DNA of 37,419 bases from a virus: the UHGV virus genome UHGV-0125336; one strand, written 5' to 3'. The position numbers and the translations under genes are program-made. Shown here piece by piece: positions 5,356 to 17,218 of this stretch. Below the pieces are notes generated by a model, which saw only the letters and a program-made list of their open reading frames with translations, did no database searches and had not been told where the DNA came from. Every line of letters begins with the position of its first letter. The first letter of the stretch is position 1.

Positions 5356-8178
5356 ATGACGGCAGAGTACATCAGGGACTGGCAACAACCGCGCCACGCA
5401 GTGGGGCGTGAAGGAACGGGGATCCCCGCTCCTGAATCCGCGCTTTCCTCCTGGCTGGATGCCTACCGGGTAGAGAACGAGCACCGCCAGGAAATGGCTG
5501 ATGCGGCGTTCTCCGCAACGCTGCTGGGCAACCTGATTAATAAAAGCCTGGACGCACAGGAAAAACAGGACAAAACCATCACACTGGCAGGAGACGCCAG
5601 AAAACAGGCACGCGGCGCGGTGGATGAAGCCATGGCCTCGCTGCGCCTGCTGCCGTCCTATCTGCGCGATCCGCTTATTCGCCACCTCTCCTTCCTGCGC
5701 AAAAAACAGGAAGCCGATCGCCGGAAAGGCAAAAAGAGCTGGCAGGCTGAACACTACGCGCGCGGAACCCTGCGCAAAATATTCGAACGTCTGGATCGCA
5801 CTGACAGACGCTGGCTGACACCGGGTTATCGCTCCCTTGCCGGACGCGAACGCCTGGACGATTTGCTTTACCTGCCGCAGCTCAACAAACACCAGATACA
5901 GACGCTGGCCACCATGACGGCGGCGATGTTCAGCAGCACCTTCGAAAAACTCTGCGATGGCTTTGGCGCGACTGATGGCGAACTGACCATGGATGTAACG
6001 CTGAAGGCGTATCAGATGCTGGCCCGCATGGCGTTACACCTGCACGCCATGCCTCCACATTATGACGCACTGACAACAGACAAAGACCGGAGGAACGAAC
6101 CGGACACGGAGCTGCTGCCGGGCGCAATCCTCCGCCTGACCTGTGCGGAATGGTGGAAACGCAAACTGTGGCTGTTACGTTGCGAGTGGAGAGAAGAACA
6201 ACTCCGCGCCGCCTGTCTGGTTTCCAGAAAAACATCGCCCTATCTGAGCCAGGACGCGTTAAGCGAGTTTCGCGCACAGCGCGAGAAAACACGCGATTTC
6301 CTGAAAAGTTTCATGCTGGAAAATGAAGACGGGTTCACGATTGATCTCGAGACGGTGTATTACGCGGGAGTAAGTAACCCGGTTCACCGTAAGGCAGAAA
6401 TGATGGCCACCATGAAGGGACTGGAACTTCTGGCCGAAGCCCGTAGCGACAGAGCGGTGTTTCTGACCGTCACCTGCCCGTCAAAATACCACGCAACAAC
6501 GGAGAACGGTCATCCGAACCCCAAATGGAACGGGGCCACCATGCGCGACTCCAGCGATTACCTGGTTAACACGTTTTTTGCGGCAGTCCGCAAAAAACTG
6601 AACCGCGACGGCCTGCGCTGGTATGGCATCCGCACGGTGGAGCCTCACCATGACGGCACCGTGCACTGGCATATGATGGTCTTTGCTCATCCGGAAGAAA
6701 TCGACAGCATCGTGGCCATCACCCGCGATATTGCCATTCAGGAAGATCGTCACGAACTGGGCGATGATATTACTCCGCGCTTTAAGGCGGAGTATGTCGA
6801 CGGCTCAAAAGGCACACCAACCAGCTATATCGCGACCTACATCGGAAAAAACCTGGACAGCCGCGCCGTAGATGGCATCGACCCGAAAACGGGCAAGCCA
6901 CGCGTTGACCACGAAACCGGAAAATCAATGGCCGAGAGCGTGGAGCGCGCCATTGGCTGGGCGCGTCTTCATCGGGTCCGCCAGTTCCAGTTCTTTGGCA
7001 TCCCCTCCCGTCAGGTATGGCGTGAACTCCGCCGCCTTGCCAGCCAGATGGCACGCAACCCGGAAGGCCCGCAACGGCTGAAGGATGATGCAATGGATGC
7101 GGTACTCGCTGCCGCTGATGCCGGGTGTTTTGCCTCCTACATTGAAAAACAGGGTGGCGTGCTTGTTCCACGCAAGGACTACCTGATTCGCACCGCCTAC
7201 GACCTCGCAGATGAGCTGAACGATTACGGCGAACAGAGCGTACAGATTTACGGGATCTGGTCACCACTCATCGGGGAATCCTCCCGTGTGTGCACGCATC
7301 CGGATAACTGGAAGCTGGTAAGACGTAAACCGGAAGCGGAAGACAGCGCCCGCGAAAATGGTTTTGACCTTCAGGGCGGCCCTGCCGCCCCTTGGACTCG
7401 TGGCAATAACTGTCCCCGTGTACAGGAAACGGACAACAACGGGACAGAACAGCCGGAAGAACGGCCAGCACCGTGGCCGCAGCTTCCTGACGGCGTTGAC
7501 GTGAACGAATGGATGCGCTCACTGAAACGGCACGAACGCCGGGCGCTGATGCGTTCGCTTCGTGACAAACAGGCAAAAAACAGCAGTGATGAAATGCAGA
7601 GCTGGACACAGAGCCGCAAACAGCAGCGGCCTTTGCCTGATAACCACGAATTACTCGCTAAAGAATGGCGGGAATCTGCCGAATCTCTCGGCCTGCATAT
7701 CGGTGAACAGCAGATGCAGCACCTGTTACGGGGCGGCAGTCTGTACGTTGACGGCAGCATCATTGCACCGCAGGGATTTGAAATTGTACGCAAACCGGAT
7801 ACCCGACCGGACAGCCGAATCACGCAGCTCTGGCAGCGCCTGAGCCGTAACCACGGCGTAAGCAGTACGGAGATCCGCCATAACCCGGTCGCCAGCTATC
7901 TGGAACAGCTGAGGGCATCAGACCCCGAAGCCGCCGCACGCCTGGCATCCACACTTCAGCAAGACCAGAACACCATGAAAACACCCGTTACCGTGCTTTC
8001 TGACATGCTGCGCGCCATCCGCGACGCAGAGCACGCACAGAGAATCAGTGAAACCACTGAACGCGCCCGCCGCAAAGCAGACCTGCTGCGGGGTGGCCTG
8101 ACCAGTGGAAACAAAAAACAGACAGAAACGGGATTCACAAATCCCGTAAATGAGCAAAAAACGCGCCGCGATATATGA
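5356..8178 (+). CDS. A: Replication initiation endonuclease, P2 gpA-like (rolling-circle)
   Basis: 940-aa ORF in the A position. Contains an HHDGTVHWHMMVF metal-binding HxH-type motif and downstream tyrosines typical of HUH rolling-circle initiators. Confidence 0.9.
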   Translation: MTAEYIRDWQQPRHAVGREGTGIPAPESALSSWLDAYRVENEHRQEMADAAFSATLLGNLINKSLDAQEKQDKTITLAGDARKQARGAVDEAMASLRLLPSYLRDPLIRHLSFLRKKQEADRRKGKKSWQAEHYARGTLRKIFERLDRTDRRWLTPGYRSLAGRERLDDLLYLPQLNKHQIQTLATMTAAMFSSTFEKLCDGFGATDGELTMDVTLKAYQMLARMALHLHAMPPHYDALTTDKDRRNEPDTELLPGAILRLTCAEWWKRKLWLLRCEWREEQLRAACLVSRKTSPYLSQDALSEFRAQREKTRDFLKSFMLENEDGFTIDLETVYYAGVSNPVHRKAEMMATMKGLELLAEARSDRAVFLTVTCPSKYHATTENGHPNPKWNGATMRDSSDYLVNTFFAAVRKKLNRDGLRWYGIRTVEPHHDGTVHWHMMVFAHPEEIDSIVAITRDIAIQEDRHELGDDITPRFKAEYVDGSKGTPTSYIATYIGKNLDSRAVDGIDPKTGKPRVDHETGKSMAESVERAIGWARLHRVRQFQFFGIPSRQVWRELRRLASQMARNPEGPQRLKDDAMDAVLAAADAGCFASYIEKQGGVLVPRKDYLIRTAYDLADELNDYGEQSVQIYGIWSPLIGESSRVCTHPDNWKLVRRKPEAEDSARENGFDLQGGPAAPWTRGNNCPRVQETDNNGTEQPEERPAPWPQLPDGVDVNEWMRSLKRHERRALMRSLRDKQAKNSSDEMQSWTQSRKQQRPLPDNHELLAKEWRESAESLGLHIGEQQMQHLLRGGSLYVDGSIIAPQGFEIVRKPDTRPDSRITQLWQRLSRNHGVSSTEIRHNPVASYLEQLRASDPEAAARLASTLQQDQNTMKTPVTVLSDMLRAIRDAEHAQRISETTERARRKADLLRGGLTSGNKKQTETGFTNPVNEQKTRRDI

Positions 8179-8226
8179 AGCGCGCATAAAACAGGCAAAA
8201 ACGGGATTTCAGAATCCCGTAAACGA
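8115..8226. repeat. Two 39-bp direct repeats, each with a 7-bp inverted repeat (ACGGGAT-N6-ATCCCGT); candidate ParR-binding centromere/operator
   Basis: Copy 1 at 8115..8153 lies inside the A 3' end. Copy 2 at 8188..8226 lies between A and the parM-like gene. Palindrome centres are 73 bp apart (about 7 helical turns). Confidence 0.45.
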
Positions 8227-8254: not shown

Positions 8255-9214
8255 ATGAAAATTTGTATCGATGACGGCTCCACCAACATCAAGCTGGCAT
8301 GGACTGAGAACGGCGAACGCCGCAACGCCATCAGCCCGAACAGCTTCAAGTCGGAATGGTCTGCGCCGTTCGGTGGCACGCAGCCCGCGAACTACATGCT
8401 TGATGGCGTGCGCTATGGTTTTGATCCGGTCAGCGATCGCTTTGTCCAGACGACTGACACGCAATACCAGTACAGCGATGTGAATGTCATTGCCATTCAT
8501 CACGCGCTGGTCAAATCAGGCATCACGCCACAGGAGGTGGATGTGGTTGTCACCCTGCCACTGAGCGAGTATTTCGACACAAACGCACAGCCGGACATAG
8601 CCAACATCAACCGCAAAAAAGCGAACGTTATGCGCCCGGTGGAGTACCAGAACGGCGAAGCATTCACTATCCGTAACGTACGGGTTATGCCTGAATCCAT
8701 TCCGGCTGGCTTTAAGGCACTGGCTGACATGAGTCCGTTTGAATCCCTGCTGATTGTGGATTTAGGCGGAACCACGCTGGATGTGGCAAAGGTTCAGGGA
8801 CAACTGGCAGGTATCAGCCAGGTGTTTTGCGATCCACACGTAGGCGTTTCCCTGATGGCCGATGCCGTACTGTCGGTGATGGCCACTAACGGTATGCGTA
8901 CCAGTCACCACATCGCCAATACCATTATCGAACATCGCCATGATGAAGCCTGGCTGCGCCAGCACATCCACAATGACGCGCATTACGCCAGCCTGATGGC
9001 GGTTATTCGTGAAAAGGAAGAAACACTGAAACAACGCGTGATCCGCGCGCTGGCGGGTTTTTCGGGTTACGGGCGGGTGATGGTTGTCGGTGGCGGGGCA
9101 GAGATTGTGGCACCCGCTATCCGCGAAGCCTGCGGAGTTAATGCGACTTTCATCGCGGACGGGGTGCCACAGTTTGCTCTGGTTAATGGGCTGTACGCAA
9201 TGGGCAAGGAGTAA
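8255..9214 (+). CDS. parM: ParM/StbA-like actin-type segregation ATPase
   Basis: Collinear similarity to plasmid R1 ParM as recalled: N-terminal IDDGSTNIKL, YSDVNV..HHAL, KKAN, VMPESIPAG, DLGGTTLD, GVSL, VGGGAE, LVNG. Confidence 0.8.
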   Translation: MKICIDDGSTNIKLAWTENGERRNAISPNSFKSEWSAPFGGTQPANYMLDGVRYGFDPVSDRFVQTTDTQYQYSDVNVIAIHHALVKSGITPQEVDVVVTLPLSEYFDTNAQPDIANINRKKANVMRPVEYQNGEAFTIRNVRVMPESIPAGFKALADMSPFESLLIVDLGGTTLDVAKVQGQLAGISQVFCDPHVGVSLMADAVLSVMATNGMRTSHHIANTIIEHRHDEAWLRQHIHNDAHYASLMAVIREKEETLKQRVIRALAGFSGYGRVMVVGGGAEIVAPAIREACGVNATFIADGVPQFALVNGLYAMGKE

Positions 9215-9593: not shown

Positions 9594-9926
9594 ATGCAAC
9601 ACATTGACAGAGAAAAAGCGCAGCGACTGATTGAGCGGATGGAAGCGCTGGCGAAAGAAGAAAATGTCAACATCCAAAAAATAGCTGAATGTGGCCAGAT
9701 AGTTCTTCGTCGTGAAAAAGACCTCAAACAACTGATGTCTGGCGAAACCAGCAAAACATGGACTTCAGGCGAGAAGACGGTTTATTGCAGCTTCTGCAAT
9801 AAATCCCAGTACGAAGTCACAAAGGTGATTGCCGGACCGTCTGTTTACATCTGCAATGAGTGCGTGGATTTGTGCAATGAAATTATCAGGAAAGAAGTGA
9901 CAGACAAAAAGGAAAAAAACGCATGA
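9594..9926 (+). CDS. Small protein with a C-terminal ClpX N-terminal zinc-binding-domain (C4) homolog
   Basis: The C-terminal 40 aa ([40 protein letters not shown]) is near-identical in pattern to the E. coli ClpX ZBD as recalled ([40 protein letters not shown]). No AAA+ domain follows. N-terminal 60 aa are helical and unrelated. Confidence 0.7.
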
Positions 9927-10237
9927 ACAGAAAACAGAAACAAGAGTTGAAATACTTCTTACGTAAAGAAATTGCCAGGCTTGAAGATGCAGAGTCACAA
10001 TCATCAGAAATTCCGTTCGGAATGGATATCAACGACGCCCGTATGCTCCAGGCATACCGCATAGCTCAGGCTGCACTACAGGCAAAACCGTCAGATGGAC
10101 TGGTTAGAGCAGTACATTTCTATGAACAGGTAAAGCGTGAGAATCCGCCAGTCGAAACCGGAGCATGGAAAGACGCTGTTGACTGGGTGCTCAAAGAGGC
10201 TTGCCAGTCTGTAAACATTGGCATCAAAGGAGAGTGA
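9923..10237 (+). CDS. Hypothetical protein
   Basis: 104-aa ORF. Start overlaps the upstream stop. Ends ...IGIKGE. Confidence 0.5.
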
Positions 10238-10239
10238 GA

Positions 10240-10731
10240 ATGCAAATTTCACCGGTTACTCTTCGTGTTGCGAAGGCGTTTATATCCAGACATCACCGAC
10301 ACAATAAACCCCCGGTGGGGCATAAATTCAGCATTGGTCTGAGAAATGATGCCGGAGAATTGATAGGTGTGGCGACAGCCGGTAGACCTGTTGCACGACA
10401 TTTGGACGATGGATTAACGCTTGAAGTAAATCGCACATGTACCACAGGAGAACGCAACGCTAACAGCGCGCTTTATGGTGCTGTCTGGCGGGCAGCAAAG
10501 GCTATGGGTTATCAACGTTGTATTACGTACACCCAGGCAGATGAATCAGGAGCATCTCTCCGCGCAGCTGGTTTTGTTCGTGTGAAAGAGCTTCCTCCAA
10601 GAAAAAGCTGGGCGGAATCAAGCGTCGCCCTGCGGAGTAAACGCGATCCGGTCGGAAACGGTGGTGTTCCTCGTGTGCTCTGGGAAATCAGGAGAATGAG
10701 TACCACTGGCATTCGCATCAAAGGAGAGTGA
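10240..10731 (+). CDS. Hypothetical protein
   Basis: 163 aa from ATG 10240, with AAGGAG RBS. Ends ...GIRIKGE. No motif identified with confidence. Confidence 0.5.
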   Translation: MQISPVTLRVAKAFISRHHRHNKPPVGHKFSIGLRNDAGELIGVATAGRPVARHLDDGLTLEVNRTCTTGERNANSALYGAVWRAAKAMGYQRCITYTQADESGASLRAAGFVRVKELPPRKSWAESSVALRSKRDPVGNGGVPRVLWEIRRMSTTGIRIKGE

Positions 10732-10996: not shown

Positions 10997-11040
10997 GGAC
11001 CCAGCAAATATACACAACCTATAAAACACTAAAGCGCCTC

Positions 11041-11065
11041 AGGGGCGCTTTTTGTTTGCACAAAA
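11041..11065 (+). terminator. Intrinsic terminator closing the accessory operon
   Basis: AGCGCC-TCAG-GGGCGCT hairpin followed by TTTTTGTTT. Confidence 0.55.
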
Positions 11066-11091
11066 GTGCACAAATTTGCACAATTTTTTTG
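11065..11091. repeat. Three TGCACAA direct repeats at exact 10-bp phasing
   Basis: TGCACAA at 11065, 11075 and 11085, with a fourth copy at 11149. Candidate protein-binding array beside the cos region. Confidence 0.4.
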
Positions 11092-11099
11092 AACGACTT

Positions 11100-11507
11100 T
11101 TTACCCTTCCGGCCCGCATGGCGGCTGGATCCGTCAAGGATCCGTGCGTGCACAAAAAAACGCGCTTTTTCTGCGCGCAGGTGACGGGGGAACAGCCCGC
11201 GTTTCAGGGGGTAAATAGCATCCCCTGAACGATGTCGCAGCGACACAACAGAATGGCTGTATTTCTCACGCTGAGCGTGAAAAAGACGTGAGGGCTTTTG
11301 ATTTGATGGAGTGGAAGATAAGGCCGTCAAAATCGCACTGAGGCGGCGAGAACATGCAGTCAACGCGGTGGGATTGTGTAAGAGTCTGACTGTCGATGAT
11401 GGCAATCAGCAGGAAAGCATCGTGAAATTATCTGACTGATACAGGAGCTGGAGAGTCGGGGCATAAATTTTTTATGCCCCGGCGAAGCAGCAGACAAGCG
11501 AAGCGCG
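11100..11507. other. Putative cos / packaging region
   Basis: About 400 bp non-coding between the accessory operon terminator and the Q stop, matching the P2 cos position. GC-rich, several hairpins (11161-11180, 11202-11232, 11453-11478). Exact cohesive end not identified. Confidence 0.3.
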
Positions 11508-12554
11508 TCAGGATGTGGGCTGGGTGTCTAACAGTGCGTAAGGGTTAAAGCGGATCACCTCTTCGCCAAGCCAGTCATTGATGTGCTTCATGGCCTCCAT
11601 GACGGGCATCAGCTCGTTAATTGCGTAAACCCGCGCGGCCTTCTCCACATCACCAAACGCACTTTTTTCGCCCGGCATCGCCCCCATCAGTTGCGGCGGA
11701 ACGCGGTGCGCAGCCAGCACATCATCACGGGATGCCGCCTTAACATTCATGAACTCATCCTTTGCGGTGATCTGCTGGAACGGCAAAATTTGCACCCCCT
11801 CTTTGCCCCCGTTAGGCGCATGAATGAGCACGTTTTTAAACGCACCACCACCACGTGCCCCCTGTAGCGTTTCTTTCAGGGAGTCCATGCTTTCGCGGTT
11901 TACCTGCGCTGCACCGATGTAGATGATGCACCCGGCGTGGGATCCATTGTCGTAATACAGTTTTCTGAACATGTCCGCCGAATGAGACAGGCTGGCCGAG
12001 AGTAATGCGCCGAGATATTCCGGCATGCCGTAGATTTCCTGGTTAATGTCAGGATTCATCAGGTGGCACACTTTGCCAGGGCGAAACTGAAACGCGTCCT
12101 TGCCATCCTGCACATACCACCATGATTCAAGATCGCTTCCGCGTCGCATGTATTTCGCCAGGGCGTGCCGTAATTTAAGCGGTTCGCCGAGCATATTGCT
12201 TCGAAGCTCAAGGAATGCGTTACCGAACACAAACCAGTCCAGCGCCAGCGCCGAGAAATCCTGCCGGGAAAGCAACGGGTGCGGGATGTAGCAACCGAGT
12301 AATACATTGCGCTTAAAGTAAAGCGCAGACTGATGCCAGGACGTTTGCCGGGCAGCTCTTGCCAGACCGTACCAGTCCACCGGGGTTTCATACCACCGCC
12401 CGTTATCAGCACAGTACATATTGTCCAGCAGGTCATGCCCGGTCAGGCGATAAGGACCATCAAATGTGAATGCACTGAGCGATGATTCTTTCCTGAGCGC
12501 ATCAGCGAGATCAATGCGTGAACTCATGCGCACTTTTTTATTTTTTCTGCTCAT
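11508..12554 (-). CDS. Q: Portal protein, P2 gpQ-like
   Basis: 348-aa ORF with P2-typical position and orientation (Q and P leftward, divergent from O). Confidence 0.85.
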   Translation of the reverse strand: MSRKNKKVRMSSRIDLADALRKESSLSAFTFDGPYRLTGHDLLDNMYCADNGRWYETPVDWYGLARAARQTSWHQSALYFKRNVLLGCYIPHPLLSRQDFSALALDWFVFGNAFLELRSNMLGEPLKLRHALAKYMRRGSDLESWWYVQDGKDAFQFRPGKVCHLMNPDINQEIYGMPEYLGALLSASLSHSADMFRKLYYDNGSHAGCIIYIGAAQVNRESMDSLKETLQGARGGGAFKNVLIHAPNGGKEGVQILPFQQITAKDEFMNVKAASRDDVLAAHRVPPQLMGAMPGEKSAFGDVEKAARVYAINELMPVMEAMKHINDWLGEEVIRFNPYALLDTQPTS

Positions 12555-14305
12555 CAGAACTCCATAACCGTGAAACGCTCGTTTTCTCCTTCGCCGCCAA
12601 TCGGTTCGTTAATGACAGCAAGCATGGTTGCCCACGCAAGGTCGCCGTGGCTGATCCCCCTCGCACGGTCCGTTTCGTAAGTGATAAAGCCGCCCGGTGT
12701 TTTCACCTTACGCACGGCGTTAAAGGCCGCGACCAGCTCGCGTTCGGCGCGATCGTATTCCCACCGCCCGGCACGCATTATTTGCAGCATTTTCAGTACC
12801 AGCGACCGTTTTGATGACAGCGTGAAGGTGTACGGAATAGCGGCAGGGAAAAACCGTTTCACTATCTGATAAACAGCCTCCCCGTTCCCGCCCGTCACAT
12901 CAATGCCGATGTGTTCCACGTTGTAGCGACACGTGAACTCTTCAATGACTCTGGCCTGTTCTTCAAACTCCAGCCCCTGAACGCGTCGCGTCTCCACCGT
13001 TCGAAAACGGCCACCAGGAACAGCCGGAGGAACCACCACGGATACAGCGCCGCTGTCGCCGTTGCCACTGCTGCCGTTTGCGTCATATCCAATCCATACC
13101 GGACGATTTCCCATCGGGCGGGGAGCAAAAGGTTTCCAGTCTTTCCAGTCGTCGTATCCGTCAACACCGCAGCCAATCAGGATATTCAGGTTAAATGCCG
13201 ATTCCCCTTCGCGGACAAACTCACACATATAGAGATTGAGGAACTCGTCTTCGGTGTTTTCATCACGAATTTCGTCGATATCGGTGTGTTCCCAGCCGTG
13301 ATTAACCACATCTTCCAGCGTGACAATTTGCCGCCACGTCCGGTCAGGGCAGATAAGCCCGTTATGCAGCGTTTTCCAGTCCACAGAAAAACGCTGGCGT
13401 TTATGCGTGGCCTTTTTCTCGTTCCAGCGGTCGCCGTTCCAGTAGGCGTATGCCTCGTGCGTTTCGGTGGATGGCGTGGAGAAGTAGGTGCGCCGCAGTC
13501 CGCTGAGGGTTGCCATAGCGCCAGCCACTTTGCGCAGTTCAGCAAAGCGACTGACCCAGAAAAATTCATCAAAATAAAAATTGCCCGTATAGGACTGTGC
13601 CGACGCAGCAGAAGTGCCGAGAAAATGCAGCTCTGCGCCGTTGGAGAGGATGATTTTATCGCCCCCTTTCAGCTCCACATCAACTTCAGCCGCGGCCTTC
13701 TGAATAATGCTTTTAAACTGGAACGCCTGACGACGCGACGCAGACAAAAAAATCTGGTTACGCTGGTAAGGTTGCGCCACATCGTCACGCAGCGCCATCA
13801 GCAGCGCTTCCTGTGCAAAATACCAGGTCGCCCCAATCTGTCGGGATTTCAGGATCATCCTGTTACGTATCCCTGCTTCCCTGCAAAGGGTCAGGGAGTC
13901 AAACCAGCCCCGCTGATGCCACTCCAGCCTGCTGATGATTTTTTCCCGCAGTGCGGCAATCTGTTCCGGCGTGAAATGATTTTTAAGCTTTTTCGCCCGG
14001 CCTTTCTTTCCTGTGGCCGTCGCATCCGGCTGGCCATCATGCAGTTTTTTAAGCTGCCGGGTCAGCAGGTCTATTTCCTTGAAGTCACCACCTGTTTTAT
14101 TCTGTTTTTCAGTGAGCTGGATGAGGCGCGCATCGATGGACTGCGTGACACGCTGCACGGGTGGCGTTTCATCCCACTGGTCGCGTTTTTTCCACGCATA
14201 AATCGTGTTCGGGTTTATTCCCATCAGACGTGATATTTCTGCGGGCGGATAACCCTGCCAGTAAAGTTGCCGCGCACGCTGGCGCACAAAAGCGTCCTGA
14301 ATCAT
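12554..14305 (-). CDS. P: Terminase large (ATPase) subunit, P2 gpP-like
   Basis: 583-aa ORF immediately upstream of Q on the same strand. Confidence 0.9.
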   Translation of the reverse strand: MIQDAFVRQRARQLYWQGYPPAEISRLMGINPNTIYAWKKRDQWDETPPVQRVTQSIDARLIQLTEKQNKTGGDFKEIDLLTRQLKKLHDGQPDATATGKKGRAKKLKNHFTPEQIAALREKIISRLEWHQRGWFDSLTLCREAGIRNRMILKSRQIGATWYFAQEALLMALRDDVAQPYQRNQIFLSASRRQAFQFKSIIQKAAAEVDVELKGGDKIILSNGAELHFLGTSAASAQSYTGNFYFDEFFWVSRFAELRKVAGAMATLSGLRRTYFSTPSTETHEAYAYWNGDRWNEKKATHKRQRFSVDWKTLHNGLICPDRTWRQIVTLEDVVNHGWEHTDIDEIRDENTEDEFLNLYMCEFVREGESAFNLNILIGCGVDGYDDWKDWKPFAPRPMGNRPVWIGYDANGSSGNGDSGAVSVVVPPAVPGGRFRTVETRRVQGLEFEEQARVIEEFTCRYNVEHIGIDVTGGNGEAVYQIVKRFFPAAIPYTFTLSSKRSLVLKMLQIMRAGRWEYDRAERELVAAFNAVRKVKTPGGFITYETDRARGISHGDLAWATMLAVINEPIGGEGENERFTVMEF

Positions 14306-16417: not shown

Positions 16418-17218
16418 ATGATTACTCCTGCACAGCAACACTGGCAGAACGTGATGGCACAGCGCGCAGGCCGGGCGAATGAAGGCGTGGACCACGCCGC
16501 GCGTACCGCGCATGAAGAGGTGCTGTATCGTCTGCGTCTGGCACAGGCCCGGCTTAAGGGCGTACAGGCCAGAAGCGCGAAAGCCGCCATCAAAAAAGAG
16601 TTATTGCCGGACTTTTCCGGCTGGATTGAGGGAACGCTGGAGGCTGACGGCGGGCAGCAGGATGAAGTGATTGCCACGCTGATGGTGTGGGCGATTGACT
16701 GCAGCGATCTTCCGCTGGCGCTGCGTATTGGTGCGTATGTGGTCCGTCACAACCTCATCATGCCGGATAACTTTGGCCGTACTGCTGCCACGGTACTGAC
16801 CGAAGAAATCTGCAATCCGGTACTGACGCAGGCCGGGACGGATGCCGACGCGGATTTGTCCGCCTTTATCGAACCACTGGACACCCTCCGGGAGATTGTC
16901 ACCGACCAGGACATGCCGGACGAAGTGCGCGCCAAATTATGCAAGGCGTGCGCCTTTGCCCGCCGTGGCCTGAGCGATGCGGACAGCATGGCCTCATCAC
17001 TGAAGCTGCTGCGCGAAGCGATGCACCTGAACCCGAACGCAGGTGTGAAACGCGAGATTGCAACCCTTTCCCGCGCCCTGAAAAAAGCTGATTCCGCAGC
17101 CGCACCAGAAGATGCCAGCACACCGCAGACGCAGGACGAAAGCAGCAAAAGTAAAAAGACAACGCGGAAGCCTGCAACACGAAAAACCACCGCGACGCAG
17201 AAGGCGAAGCGCGGTTAA
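16418..17218 (+). CDS. M: Terminase small (endonuclease) subunit, P2 gpM-like
   Basis: 266-aa ORF after N, with basic C-terminal tail. Confidence 0.8.
   Translation: MITPAQQHWQNVMAQRAGRANEGVDHAARTAHEEVLYRLRLAQARLKGVQARSAKAAIKKELLPDFSGWIEGTLEADGGQQDEVIATLMVWAIDCSDLPLALRIGAYVVRHNLIMPDNFGRTAATVLTEEICNPVLTQAGTDADADLSAFIEPLDTLREIVTDQDMPDEVRAKLCKACAFARRGLSDADSMASSLKLLREAMHLNPNAGVKREIATLSRALKKADSAAAPEDASTPQTQDESSKSKKTTRKPATRKTTATQKAKRG

What the first reader, a model, noticed from the sequence alone, without database searches (positions are those of the whole stretch)
11065..11160. Helically phased TGCACAA triplet beside the cos region
Three TGCACAA copies at exactly 10-bp spacing, with a fourth 64 bp downstream, sit between the accessory operon terminator and the GC-rich hairpins of the putative cos region. 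The phasing implies one-face protein binding, for example by the small terminase subunit or IHF.
Basis: seen in the sequence. Interest (0 to 1): 0.35.

Follow-up and report, generated by a model that had tools for sequence, protein, structure and literature searches.

The report
Phased repeats in phage packaging site
The three evenly spaced TGCACAA copies and a fourth copy 72 bp further on are a conserved, position-locked part of the DNA-packaging (cos) signal of a common P2-like E. coli prophage; they are also copied by a satellite element that has no packaging genes, so they are most likely where the phage packaging enzyme docks.

Summary
TGCACAA starts at 11057, 11067 and 11077 (exactly 10 bp apart), with a fourth copy at 11149.

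The window is a P88-like (Xuanwuvirus, P2-family) prophage. The copies lie 123, 113, 103 and 31 bp upstream of a predicted 19-nt cohesive-end sequence (11180-11198), between the cargo-operon terminator and portal gene Q.

- Relatives with unrelated cargo genes lose all similarity exactly left of copy 1.
- Phages with only 57-78% identical portals keep the array.
- A satellite island without portal or terminase shares only copy 1 to cos+~40. All four heptamers and the 10/10/72/31 spacing are exact.
- P2, 186 and P4 have the equivalent TGCAT array, also with 72 bp between copies 3 and 4.
- In 69 distinct P2-clade right arms, TGCAT survives at fixed positions inside otherwise unrelated DNA.

Best explanation: accessory recognition sites of the cos signal, read by terminase. 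IHF is not supported, because there is no consensus site. The small subunit gpM models as a TPR-like helical protein without a recognisable DNA-binding domain. The large subunit gpP carries an N-terminal helix-turn-helix, so which subunit reads the sites is open. No binding or cleavage was tested. Moderately interesting; a new member of a known kind.

The parts
11031..11051 (+). Terminator-like hairpin ending the rightward accessory (cargo) operon. It lies outside the conserved cos block.
   Evidence: 9-bp stem followed by a T run. Relatives with other cargo genes have unrelated sequence here.
11057..11063 (+). Copy 1 of TGCACAA, at -123 from the predicted cos 19-mer. It marks the left border of the conserved cos block.
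   Evidence: Information content among 68 unique P88-clade sequences rises from about 0 to about 2 bits exactly here. It is the least conserved copy in distant relatives (0.77 bits).
11067..11073 (+). Copy 2 (GTGCACAA), at -113.
11077..11083 (+). Copy 3 (TTGCACAA), at -103. It is followed by a conserved T7 tract (11084-11090) and a T5 tract (11098-11102).
   Evidence: It is the best conserved distal copy (1.13 bits).
11109..11143 (.). G+C-rich imperfect dyads between the triplet and copy 4: CCGGCCCGCATGGCGGCTGG, and GGATCC-GTCAA-GGATCC with two GATC sites. This feature is lineage-specific.
   Evidence: Inverted repeats are in excess in the broad P88 set (11 against 3 with a stem of 6 or more) but not in the P2 clade. 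The segment has diverged in the satellite.
11149..11155 (+). Copy 4 (GTGCACAAAAAAA). It starts 72 bp after copy 3 and 31 bp before the predicted cos 19-mer. It is the equivalent of TGCATTAAAA in P2, P4 and 186.
   Evidence: (1.74 bits).
11160..11179 (.). G+C inverted repeat ACGCGC-TTTTTCT-GCGCGC-A abutting the cos 19-mer. The ...GCGCGCA|GG junction is conserved.
11180..11198 (+). Predicted 19-nt cohesive-end sequence GGTGACGGGGGAACAGCCC (cosN). The exact cut positions are not determined.
   Evidence: 13 of 19 identical, without gaps, to the annotated P2 cosL GGCGAGGCGGGGAAAGCAC. Identical in Enterobacter phage phiT5282H and many loci. An alternative alignment shifts it by 1-2 nt.
11199..11222 (+). 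Left-end flank GCGTTTCAGGGGGTAAAT..., the last stretch shared with the satellite island.
   Evidence: Satellite and helper similarity ends about 40 bp after the start of the 19-mer.
11508..12554 (-). Portal gene (the P2 Q homolog). It fixes the position and orientation of cos.
   Evidence: PF04860.
12554..14305 (-). Terminase large subunit gpP. Residues 6-63 (nt 14117-14290) form a Terminase_5/HTH_23 helix-turn-helix, which makes it a candidate reader of the repeats.
16418..17218 (+). Terminase small subunit gpM (PF05944). The predicted fold is TPR-like and all-helical, with a basic disordered tail.

Best explanation
The four TGCACAA copies are accessory recognition elements of the cos packaging signal of a P88-like (P2-family) prophage.

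What is shown:
- They sit on the right-end arm of cos at fixed distances (-123, -113, -103, -31) from the predicted cohesive-end sequence.
- They are under selection, both as sequence and as geometry.

What is inferred:
- Several DNA-binding modules of the terminase holoenzyme (gpP plus gpM) occupy the three phased sites on one face of the helix, plus the proximal site about seven turns away.
- This bends or wraps the intervening about 70 bp and places the nuclease on cosN about 30 bp further on.
- The reading head is more likely the N-terminal helix-turn-helix of the large subunit gpP than the TPR-like small subunit gpM. This last step is the weakest.

Satellites that must be packaged by the same enzyme carry the same array.
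For: (1) Position. The array lies between the cargo terminator and a P2-like 19-mer, downstream of portal gene Q.

(2) Border of conservation. In 68 unique P88-clade sequences, conservation begins exactly at copy 1, while the cargo to the left is unrelated.

(3) Distant relatives. 39 unique loci with portals 57-78% identical, and Enterobacter phage phiT5282H of another genus with different cargo, keep the array. Information content is 0.14 bits left of copy 1, 0.77, 0.83 and 1.13 bits in copies 1-3, and 1.74 bits in copy 4.

(4) Satellite test.
- An island has an HTH regulator, Icd-like protein, toprim primase, integrase, Ogr/Delta and a divergent capsid homolog, but no portal or terminase. 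It occurs in 56 of 5426 complete E. coli genomes.
- It shares with helper phages only copy 1 to about cos+40.
- In three islands all four heptamers and the 10/10/72/31 spacing are exact, although the DNA between copies 3 and 4 has diverged.

(5) P2, 186 and P4 have TGCAT at -123/-124, -111, -101 and -29. The distance from copy 3 to copy 4 is again 72 bp.

(6) In 69 unique right arms of P2-clade phages:
- Exact TGCAT is found at -102..-100 in 53, at -112..-110 in 47, at -125..-119 in 32 and at -30..-28 in 64. About 0.23 is expected per 3-nt window.
- The DNA in between (-96..-37) is as dissimilar as unrelated cargo DNA (median pairwise identity 0.32 against 0.28).

(7) The distal and proximal motifs change together between clades: TGCAT with TGCATTAAAA, TGCACAA with TGCACAAAAA.

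(8) gpP has an N-terminal HTH. Its recognition-helix region is NTIYAW in TGCACAA phages, PTVQSW in P2, 186 and ENT90 (TGCAT), and GTVSTW/STVSSW in two phages with GGATC-type distal repeats.
Against: - No binding, cleavage or packaging data exist for this phage. The cos cut site is predicted by similarity only.
- Within the P88 clade the whole block from -123 to +45 is conserved, so that clade alone cannot separate the repeats from the spacers. The 3-nt spacers are almost as conserved as the heptamers in the broader set (0.75 against 0.91 bits).
- Aeromonas and Shewanella relatives have distal GGATC-type repeats with less regular spacing and a different proximal motif. One reader for all four sites is therefore not general.
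- The HTH-to-repeat-class correlation rests on 3-4 classes and is confounded with phylogeny.
- From memory (unverified): P2 DNA is thought to be packaged left end first. That would put the array on the last-packaged side of cosN, unlike lambda cosB.
- In P2 the distal TGCAT copies also lie 26-54 bp upstream of the annotated old-tin transcript starts, so a second role is possible there.
Confidence: 0.7

Rival explanations
1. The array is a site for a host architectural protein such as IHF, or simply an intrinsically curved stretch made of phased A/T tracts. Either would bend cos DNA without sequence-specific reading of TGCACAA by a phage protein.
For: - Each copy runs into an A/T tract (CACAAAAG, CACAAATT, CACAATTTTTTT), repeated every 10 bp.
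- Lambda cosB uses IHF plus an intrinsic bend (established knowledge; cited in the review read).
Against: - There is no IHF consensus, even with one mismatch, anywhere near cos.
- In the P2 clade the element that survives in otherwise scrambled DNA is the TGCAT core, not the A/T tracts.
- The motif differs between clades and changes together with the proximal copy. A host protein or pure curvature would not require that.
Confidence: 0.1
2. The repeats are a transcriptional element: a back-up terminator behind the cargo operon, or an operator or promoter element for cargo genes. In this reading they are not part of the packaging signal.
For: - Copies 2 and 3 form a weak hairpin (GTGCA-CAAATT-TGCAC) followed by a T7 run, which the scan lists as terminator-like.
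- In P2 the distal TGCAT copies lie 26-54 bp upstream of the old-tin transcript starts.
Against: - The stem has only 5 pairs.
- No promoter-like site is found here.
- The array keeps a fixed distance to cosN, not to any cargo gene, although cargo genes differ in identity and orientation.
- The satellite keeps it next to cos in a completely different gene context.
Confidence: 0.07
3. The array marks a recombination border. On this view it is a crossover site for exchange of cargo cassettes in the cos-adjacent hotspot, and its conservation reflects that role.
For: - Similarity among close relatives breaks exactly at copy 1.
- Rousset et al. 2022 (PMC9122126) describe this locus as a hotspot next to cos and speculate that cohesive ends promote recombination.
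Against: - A border at copy 1 is what is expected if everything to its right is needed for packaging.
- In the P2 clade the variable DNA extends through the array up to -36, yet TGCAT persists at fixed positions. That indicates selection on the motif rather than a single crossover point.
- No recombinase gene is associated with it.
Confidence: 0.06
4. The repeats are the centromere (parC) of the ParM/StbB partition system encoded 1.5-2.8 kb upstream.
For: - ParM (8255-9214) and a Plasmid_stab_B protein (to 9530) are encoded in the window.
- Partition centromeres are helically phased iterons (established knowledge of ParMRC).
Against: - phiT5282H and the satellite lack the ParM and StbB genes but keep the array.
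- P2, 186 and P4 have the equivalent array without any partition genes.
- A separate candidate centromere lies directly upstream of parM: two 42-nt units, each with an AACGGGATT..AATCCCGT inverted repeat, at 8112-8153 and 8185-8226.
Confidence: 0.02

Closest known systems
cos site of P2, P4 and 186 (the '55-bp core' of Ziermann & Calendar 1990, as cited in PMC5694545, PMC3931495 and PMC9122126)
   Same: - Same genomic place (right end / cos / portal gene Q).
- A similar G+C-rich 19-mer.
- The same proximal TGCAYNAAAA element about 30 bp upstream.
- The same three distal phased copies, with the same 72 bp between copies 3 and 4.
- Shared between helper and satellite.
   Different: - The motif is TGCACAA instead of TGCAT.
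- The 19-mer differs at 6 of 19 positions.
- The distal spacing is 10/10 instead of 12-13/10.
- The distal copies lie outside what later papers quote as the conserved 55-bp core. I found no description of them in the papers held. The 1990 paper itself could not be read.
Lambda cosB (R3-I1-R2-R1 sites bound by gpNu1, with IHF bending)
   Same: Repeated short recognition sequences beside the nicking site, with DNA bending implied. It is part of a cos signal about 150-200 bp long.
   Different: - Here the repeats lie on the opposite side of cosN from the terminase and portal genes, on the right-end arm.
- There is no IHF consensus.
- The small subunit has no winged-helix domain like gpNu1; the helix-turn-helix sits on the large subunit.
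- Three sites are phased at 10 bp and one lies 72 bp away.
Small-terminase recognition sites of HK97 and of SPP1/SF6 (DNA contacted by several HTH modules of a ring)
   Same: Several identical DNA-binding modules of an oligomer could contact successive helical turns. That fits a 10-bp repeat.
   Different: - The predicted gpM fold is TPR-like, not the HTH-plus-oligomerisation-core fold of those proteins.
- No oligomeric state is known here.
cos-carrying satellites (P4; cos-type SaPIs such as SaPIbov5)
   Same: A satellite carries a copy of the helper's cos so that the helper terminase packages it. The E. coli C25-type island does this with the TGCACAA-type cos.
   Different: The island is not P4. 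It shares only Ogr/Delta- and primase-type functions with P4 and carries a divergent P2-family capsid homolog. Its helper has not been shown experimentally.

Membership tests
P2-family cos site | Lies downstream of the leftward portal gene Q, between Q and the right-end cargo region. | tested here: met
   Portal at 11508-12554 (-), cargo operon ending at 11051, array and 19-mer in between.
P2-family cos site | G+C-rich 19-nt cohesive-end sequence related to GGCGAGGCGGGGAAAGCAC. | tested here: met
   GGTGACGGGGGAACAGCCC at 11180-11198 matches 13 of 19 positions and has the conserved GCGCGCA|GG junction. This is similarity only.
P2-family cos site | Staggered cleavage by terminase giving 19-nt 5' overhangs at this site. 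| not testable with these tools
   It needs sequencing of virion DNA ends. One virion-derived record (P88_4B11) has a small deletion inside the predicted 19-mer. That is only a hint.
P2-family cos site | The conserved core includes a TGCAYNAAAA element about 30 bp before the 19-mer. | tested here: met
   TGCACAAAAAAA at 11149. TGCATTAAAA in P2, P4 and 186, at -29.
P2-family cos site | Shared between helper phage and dependent satellite. | tested here: met
   The E. coli C25-type island shares only copy 1 to about cos+40.
Lambda-type cosB | Repeated sites bound by the small terminase subunit through a winged-helix N-terminal domain. | tested here: not met
   Repeats are present. However, gpM has no PDB sequence relative, and its model is TPR-like without an HTH. 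Binding itself was not tested.
Lambda-type cosB | IHF site between the repeats. | tested here: not met
   No WATCAANNNNTTR match with up to 1 mismatch between 10523 and 14401.
Lambda-type cosB | Lies on the side of cosN next to the terminase genes, at the first-packaged end. | tested here: not met
   The array is on the side of the 19-mer away from Q and P. The direction of packaging in this phage is not known.
ParMRC centromere (parC) | Iterons adjacent to parM/parR that co-occur with them. | tested here: not met
   The array lies 1.5 kb downstream of the StbB-like gene. It is kept in phages and satellites without ParM. Another repeat pair lies upstream of parM.
Intrinsic terminator | Stable G+C-rich hairpin followed by a T run at the end of a transcription unit. 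| tested here: inconclusive
   The hairpin formed by copies 2 and 3 has only 5 pairs, 3 of them G-C, before the T7 run. A strong terminator already lies at 11031-11051.

The most novel reading that the evidence does not exclude
P2-family phages may recognise their packaging site in a way not described for any model phage.
- Helix-turn-helix modules carried by the large terminase subunit, organised by a TPR-like small subunit, would read a position-locked set of short repeats: three phased copies plus one exactly 72 bp away, on the right-end arm of cos.
- The repeat 'dialect' (TGCAT, TGCACAA, GGATC-type) would define helper-satellite packaging compatibility groups.
- One such group would include a previously uncharacterised capsid-homolog-carrying satellite family that uses the TGCACAA dialect.
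Probability: 0.3. Interest if true: 0.6.

Novelty: new member of a known kind. Interest (0 to 1): 0.4.

Why it matters
P2-like prophages and their satellites are among the commonest mobile elements of enterobacteria. This cos region is present in 1181 of 5426 complete E. coli genomes.

The DNA next to cos is a known hotspot for anti-phage defence genes. How P2-type terminase finds cos has not been worked out.

A short, position-locked repeat array that differs between clades, and that satellites copy, has three practical uses:
- It gives a concrete and easily testable model for packaging specificity.
- It offers a way to predict which helper packages which satellite.
- It gives a precise left border of the essential cos region, for designing P2/P4-type cosmids and for delimiting cargo hotspots.

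Tried and rejected
- **IHF:** the consensus scan found nothing near cos.
- **ParR centromere:** rejected by distribution, and by a better candidate upstream of parM.
- **Known RNA families:** only one chance-level match (SprD, E=0.33, far below its gathering score).
- **Conserved dyad or cruciform between the triplet and copy 4:** inverted repeats are in excess only in the broader P88 set (11 against 3 with a stem of 6 or more). They are not in excess in the P2 clade (4 against 7). It is therefore lineage-specific, not a general feature.
- **Pattern scan of IMG/VR (TGCACAANNNTGCACAA) for more satellites:** all 25 cos-type hits were next to a portal and TerL. The rest were chance matches.
- **Sequence search of the PDB for gpM and gpP:** no relatives found.
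- **Literature searches for a description of repeats in P2-type cos sites:**
  - Only the '55-bp core' citation turned up.
  - Ziermann & Calendar 1990 is not held.
  - The direction of P2 packaging could not be verified.
- **Covariation between the gpP helix-turn-helix and repeat class:** suggestive, but it cannot be separated from phylogeny with the few classes available.

Full report
**1. The observation**

TGCACAA occurs on the + strand at 11057, 11067, 11077 and 11149.
- The first three copies are exactly 10 bp apart.
- The fourth starts 72 bp after the third, with 65 nt in between.

The heptamer is not over-represented in the window as a whole (9 copies, 8.9 expected). The clustering is not chance. 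It is the only 7-mer in the window found three times at 10-bp spacing, and only 1 of 300 first-order Markov simulations of the window produced any such triplet.

**2. Context**

The window is a P88-like prophage (Xuanwuvirus, Peduoviridae). In this stretch it is 92-96% identical to phages P88, PhiR44_2 and 500465-2, and 100% identical to the chromosome of E. coli Eco889.

Around the array, in order:
- The rightward accessory operon holds ParM, a StbB-like protein, a ClpX-zinc-finger protein, a weak Mom-like protein and others. It ends in a terminator-like hairpin at 11031-11051.
- The four copies follow. Between copies 3 and 4 lie T tracts and G+C-rich dyads.
- A G+C inverted repeat lies at 11160-11179.
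- GGTGACGGGGGAACAGCCC lies at 11180-11198. It matches the annotated P2 cohesive end GGCGAGGCGGGGAAAGCAC at 13 of 19 positions.
- The leftward portal gene (11508-12554) and the large terminase gene (12554-14305) follow, as in P2.

Relative to the predicted 19-mer the copies start at -123, -113, -103 and -31. The cut site is a prediction by similarity. An alternative alignment shifts it by 1-2 nt.

**3. Conservation in relatives**

I collected 143 loci around portal homologs from IMG/VR.

- *Close relatives.* Among phages with 95% or more identical portals there are 68 different cos regions. The sequence left of copy 1 is unrelated from phage to phage, because the cargo differs. Information content rises from about 0 to about 2 bits exactly at the T of copy 1.
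- *Distant relatives.* In 39 unique loci with portals only 57-78% identical, the consensus is tgcacaa.a.tgcacaAattTgcacAAttTTttt ... TGCACaAAAAa. Information content is:
  - 0.14 bits left of copy 1;
  - 0.77, 0.83 and 1.13 bits in copies 1-3;
  - 0.58 bits in the DNA between the T tract and copy 4;
  - 1.74 bits in copy 4.
- *Another genus.* Enterobacter phage phiT5282H (Novemvirus) has an S8 peptidase and an AAA ATPase instead of the ParM cargo. It keeps TGCACgA/TGCACAA/TGCACAA, the fourth copy and an identical 19-mer.

**4. Satellite test**

A search of complete E. coli genomes found the region in 1181 of 5426 genomes. One weak partial hit covered only window 11057-11216.

That hit lies in an island of E. 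coli C25. The island has:
- an HTH regulator, an Icd-like protein, a toprim primase, an integrase and an Ogr/Delta zinc-finger protein;
- a divergent P2-family capsid homolog (36% and 34% identical to the capsid proteins of this phage and of P2);
- no portal and no terminase.

The island type is present in 56 genomes. The only part it shares with the helper-type prophages of another 421 genomes is the stretch from copy 1 to about 40 bp after the start of the 19-mer. In three islands the four TGCACAA copies lie at -123, -113, -103 and -31, all exact, although the DNA between copies 3 and 4 has diverged.

This is the same relation as P4 to P2, whose only homologous region is cos (Rousset et al. 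2022, PMC9122126). An element that depends on someone else's terminase has kept precisely this array.

**5. P2, 186 and P4**

| Phage | TGCAT positions relative to cos |
|---|---|
| P2 | -123, -111, -101, -29 |
| P4 | -124, -111, -101, -29 |
| 186 | -124, -111, -101, -29 |

The distance from copy 3 to copy 4 is 72 bp in all of them, as in the window. The '55-bp core' quoted from Ziermann & Calendar 1990 would fit the span from the proximal copy (29 bp) through the 19-mer plus 7 bp. That mapping is my inference. The three distal copies lie outside it.

I then took 80 P2-clade loci with 99-100% identical portals. They contain 69 different right arms.
- From -96 to -37 their median pairwise identity is 0.32. 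That is no better than unrelated cargo DNA (0.28). It is 0.93 from -35 to +25.
- Yet exact TGCAT is present at -102..-100 in 53 of 69, at -112..-110 in 47, at -125..-119 in 32 and at -30..-28 in 64. About 0.23 sequences are expected per 3-nt window.

Position-locked pentamers surviving in otherwise scrambled DNA are the strongest evidence here for selection on the motif and on its distance from cosN.

The distal and proximal motifs also change together between clades: TGCAT with TGCATTAAAA, TGCACAA with TGCACAAAAA.

Other genera show the limits of the pattern.
- Erwinia phage ENT90 and a Klebsiella Gegevirus are TGCAT(G)-type.
- Aeromonas LPM4 and Shewanella M16-3 have distal GGATC-type repeats but a TGCATGG or TGCGTTT proximal element.

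**6. Who reads the sites**

- *IHF.* The consensus is absent, even with one mismatch.
- *The large subunit gpP.* It has an N-terminal Terminase_5/HTH_23 domain at residues 6-63. The 186 record also notes a putative HTH. The presumed recognition helix differs with repeat class:

| Repeat class | Phages | Recognition-helix region |
|---|---|---|
| TGCACAA | All TGCACAA-type phages examined, including one only 51% identical overall | NT(I/V)Y(A/S)W |
| TGCAT | P2, 186, ENT90 | PTVQSW |
| TGCATGA | Klebsiella phage ST437-OXA245phi4.1 | ATVHSW |
| GGATC-type distal repeats | Aeromonas LPM4, Shewanella M16-3 | GTVSTW, STVSSW |

I treat 'terminase holoenzyme' as well supported and 'gpP helix-turn-helix' as a working hypothesis.

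**7. Mechanism (inferred)**

- Three sites 10 bp apart face one side of the helix and would suit adjacent modules of an oligomer.
- The fourth site, 72 bp (about seven turns) from the third, is on roughly the same face.
- The invariance of this distance, despite free divergence of the intervening sequence, points to a looped or wrapped complex. Such a complex would position the nuclease on cosN about 30 bp beyond the fourth site.
- Unlike lambda cosB, the array lies on the side of cosN away from the terminase genes.
- Whether that is the first- or last-packaged end in this phage is unknown. My recollection that P2 packages left end first could not be verified.

**8. Rivals**

- *Curvature or a host factor.* It does not explain clade-specific cores that co-vary with the proximal copy.
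- *A transcriptional role.* The copy 2/3 hairpin plus T run is weak. A transcriptional role would not explain a fixed distance to cosN across different cargo, nor retention in the satellite. In P2 the distal copies lie 26-54 bp upstream of the old-tin transcript starts, so a dual role there is possible.
- *A recombination border.* It is explained more simply by the need to keep cos intact.
- *The ParR centromere idea.* It fails on distribution. A better candidate lies upstream of parM.
- *A known RNA.* No Rfam family matches.

**9. Novelty and verdict**

The element belongs to the known P2-family cos site. It is ordinary in the sense that every relative has it.

I could not find a description of the distal phased repeats, their fixed geometry or their clade-specific dialects in the held literature. 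Later papers cite only the 55-bp core. The 1990 paper could not be read, so prior description cannot be excluded.

I file it as a new member of a known kind. Interest is moderate (0.4) because the model is specific and cheap to test. Confidence that the array is part of the terminase-recognised cos signal is about 0.7.

Noticed in passing
window 8112-8153 and 8185-8226 (upstream of parM at 8255): Two copies of a 42-nt unit, each containing the inverted repeat AACGGGATT..AATCCCGT. They lie directly upstream of a ParM (StbA) gene, which is followed by a Plasmid_stab_B (StbB/ParR-like) gene. This is a likely centromere/operator of a plasmid-type partition system carried by a P2-like prophage.
   Followed up: partly
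L163 1-10700 (E. coli C25, NZ_CP127314.1 4532400-4543076); also L284, L285: A satellite-like island found in 56 of 5426 complete E. coli genomes. It has an HTH regulator, Icd-like protein, toprim primase, integrase, TGCACAA-type cos, Ogr/Delta, an unknown 236-aa protein and a 423-aa divergent P2-family capsid homolog with an N-terminal extension, followed by MazEF. It has no portal or terminase. A capsid homolog in a cos satellite recalls Ccm of SaPIbov5. I did not check whether this family has been described.
   Followed up: partly
window 16418-17218 (+): The P2-family small terminase subunit (PF05944) has no sequence relative in the PDB. It models confidently as a TPR-like all-helical protein, unlike the small terminases with solved structures.
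   Followed up: partly
L286-L365, 36-125 bp upstream of cos: Among 80 P2-clade loci with 99-100% identical portals there are 69 different right arms. The variable hotspot reaches to within about 36 bp of the cohesive end.
   Followed up: yes
L003 70-100 (Xuanwuvirus P88_4B11, NC_049391.1): This record reads GGTGACGGGGGGACAGGTTTCAGG where the window has GGTGACGGGGGAACAGCCCGCGTTTCAGG. That is a small deletion inside the predicted 19-mer, possibly an assembly artefact at the physical DNA ends. The record itself starts between the triplet and the dyad (equivalent to window 11102).
   Followed up: no
window 11127-11143; L160, L161 upstream of cos: There are two GGATCC (GATC, Dam) sites 11 bp apart between the triplet and copy 4. 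Aeromonas phage LPM4 and Shewanella phage M16-3 have runs of GGATC-type repeats in the place of the distal TGCA repeats.
   Followed up: no
window 9594-9926 and 10201-10731: The cargo genes next to cos include a protein with a ClpX-type C4 zinc finger and a protein with a weak, sub-threshold match to the Mom family. They lie in the hotspot that other P2-like phages use for defence genes.
   Followed up: no
window 11200-11507: About 300 bp between the predicted cos and the portal stop codon is conserved in P88-like phages. It contains further hairpins (11259-11287, and 11457-11481 as the likely Q terminator). Relatives annotate small hypothetical ORFs here. The function is unknown, and the stretch is not shared with the satellite.
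   Followed up: no
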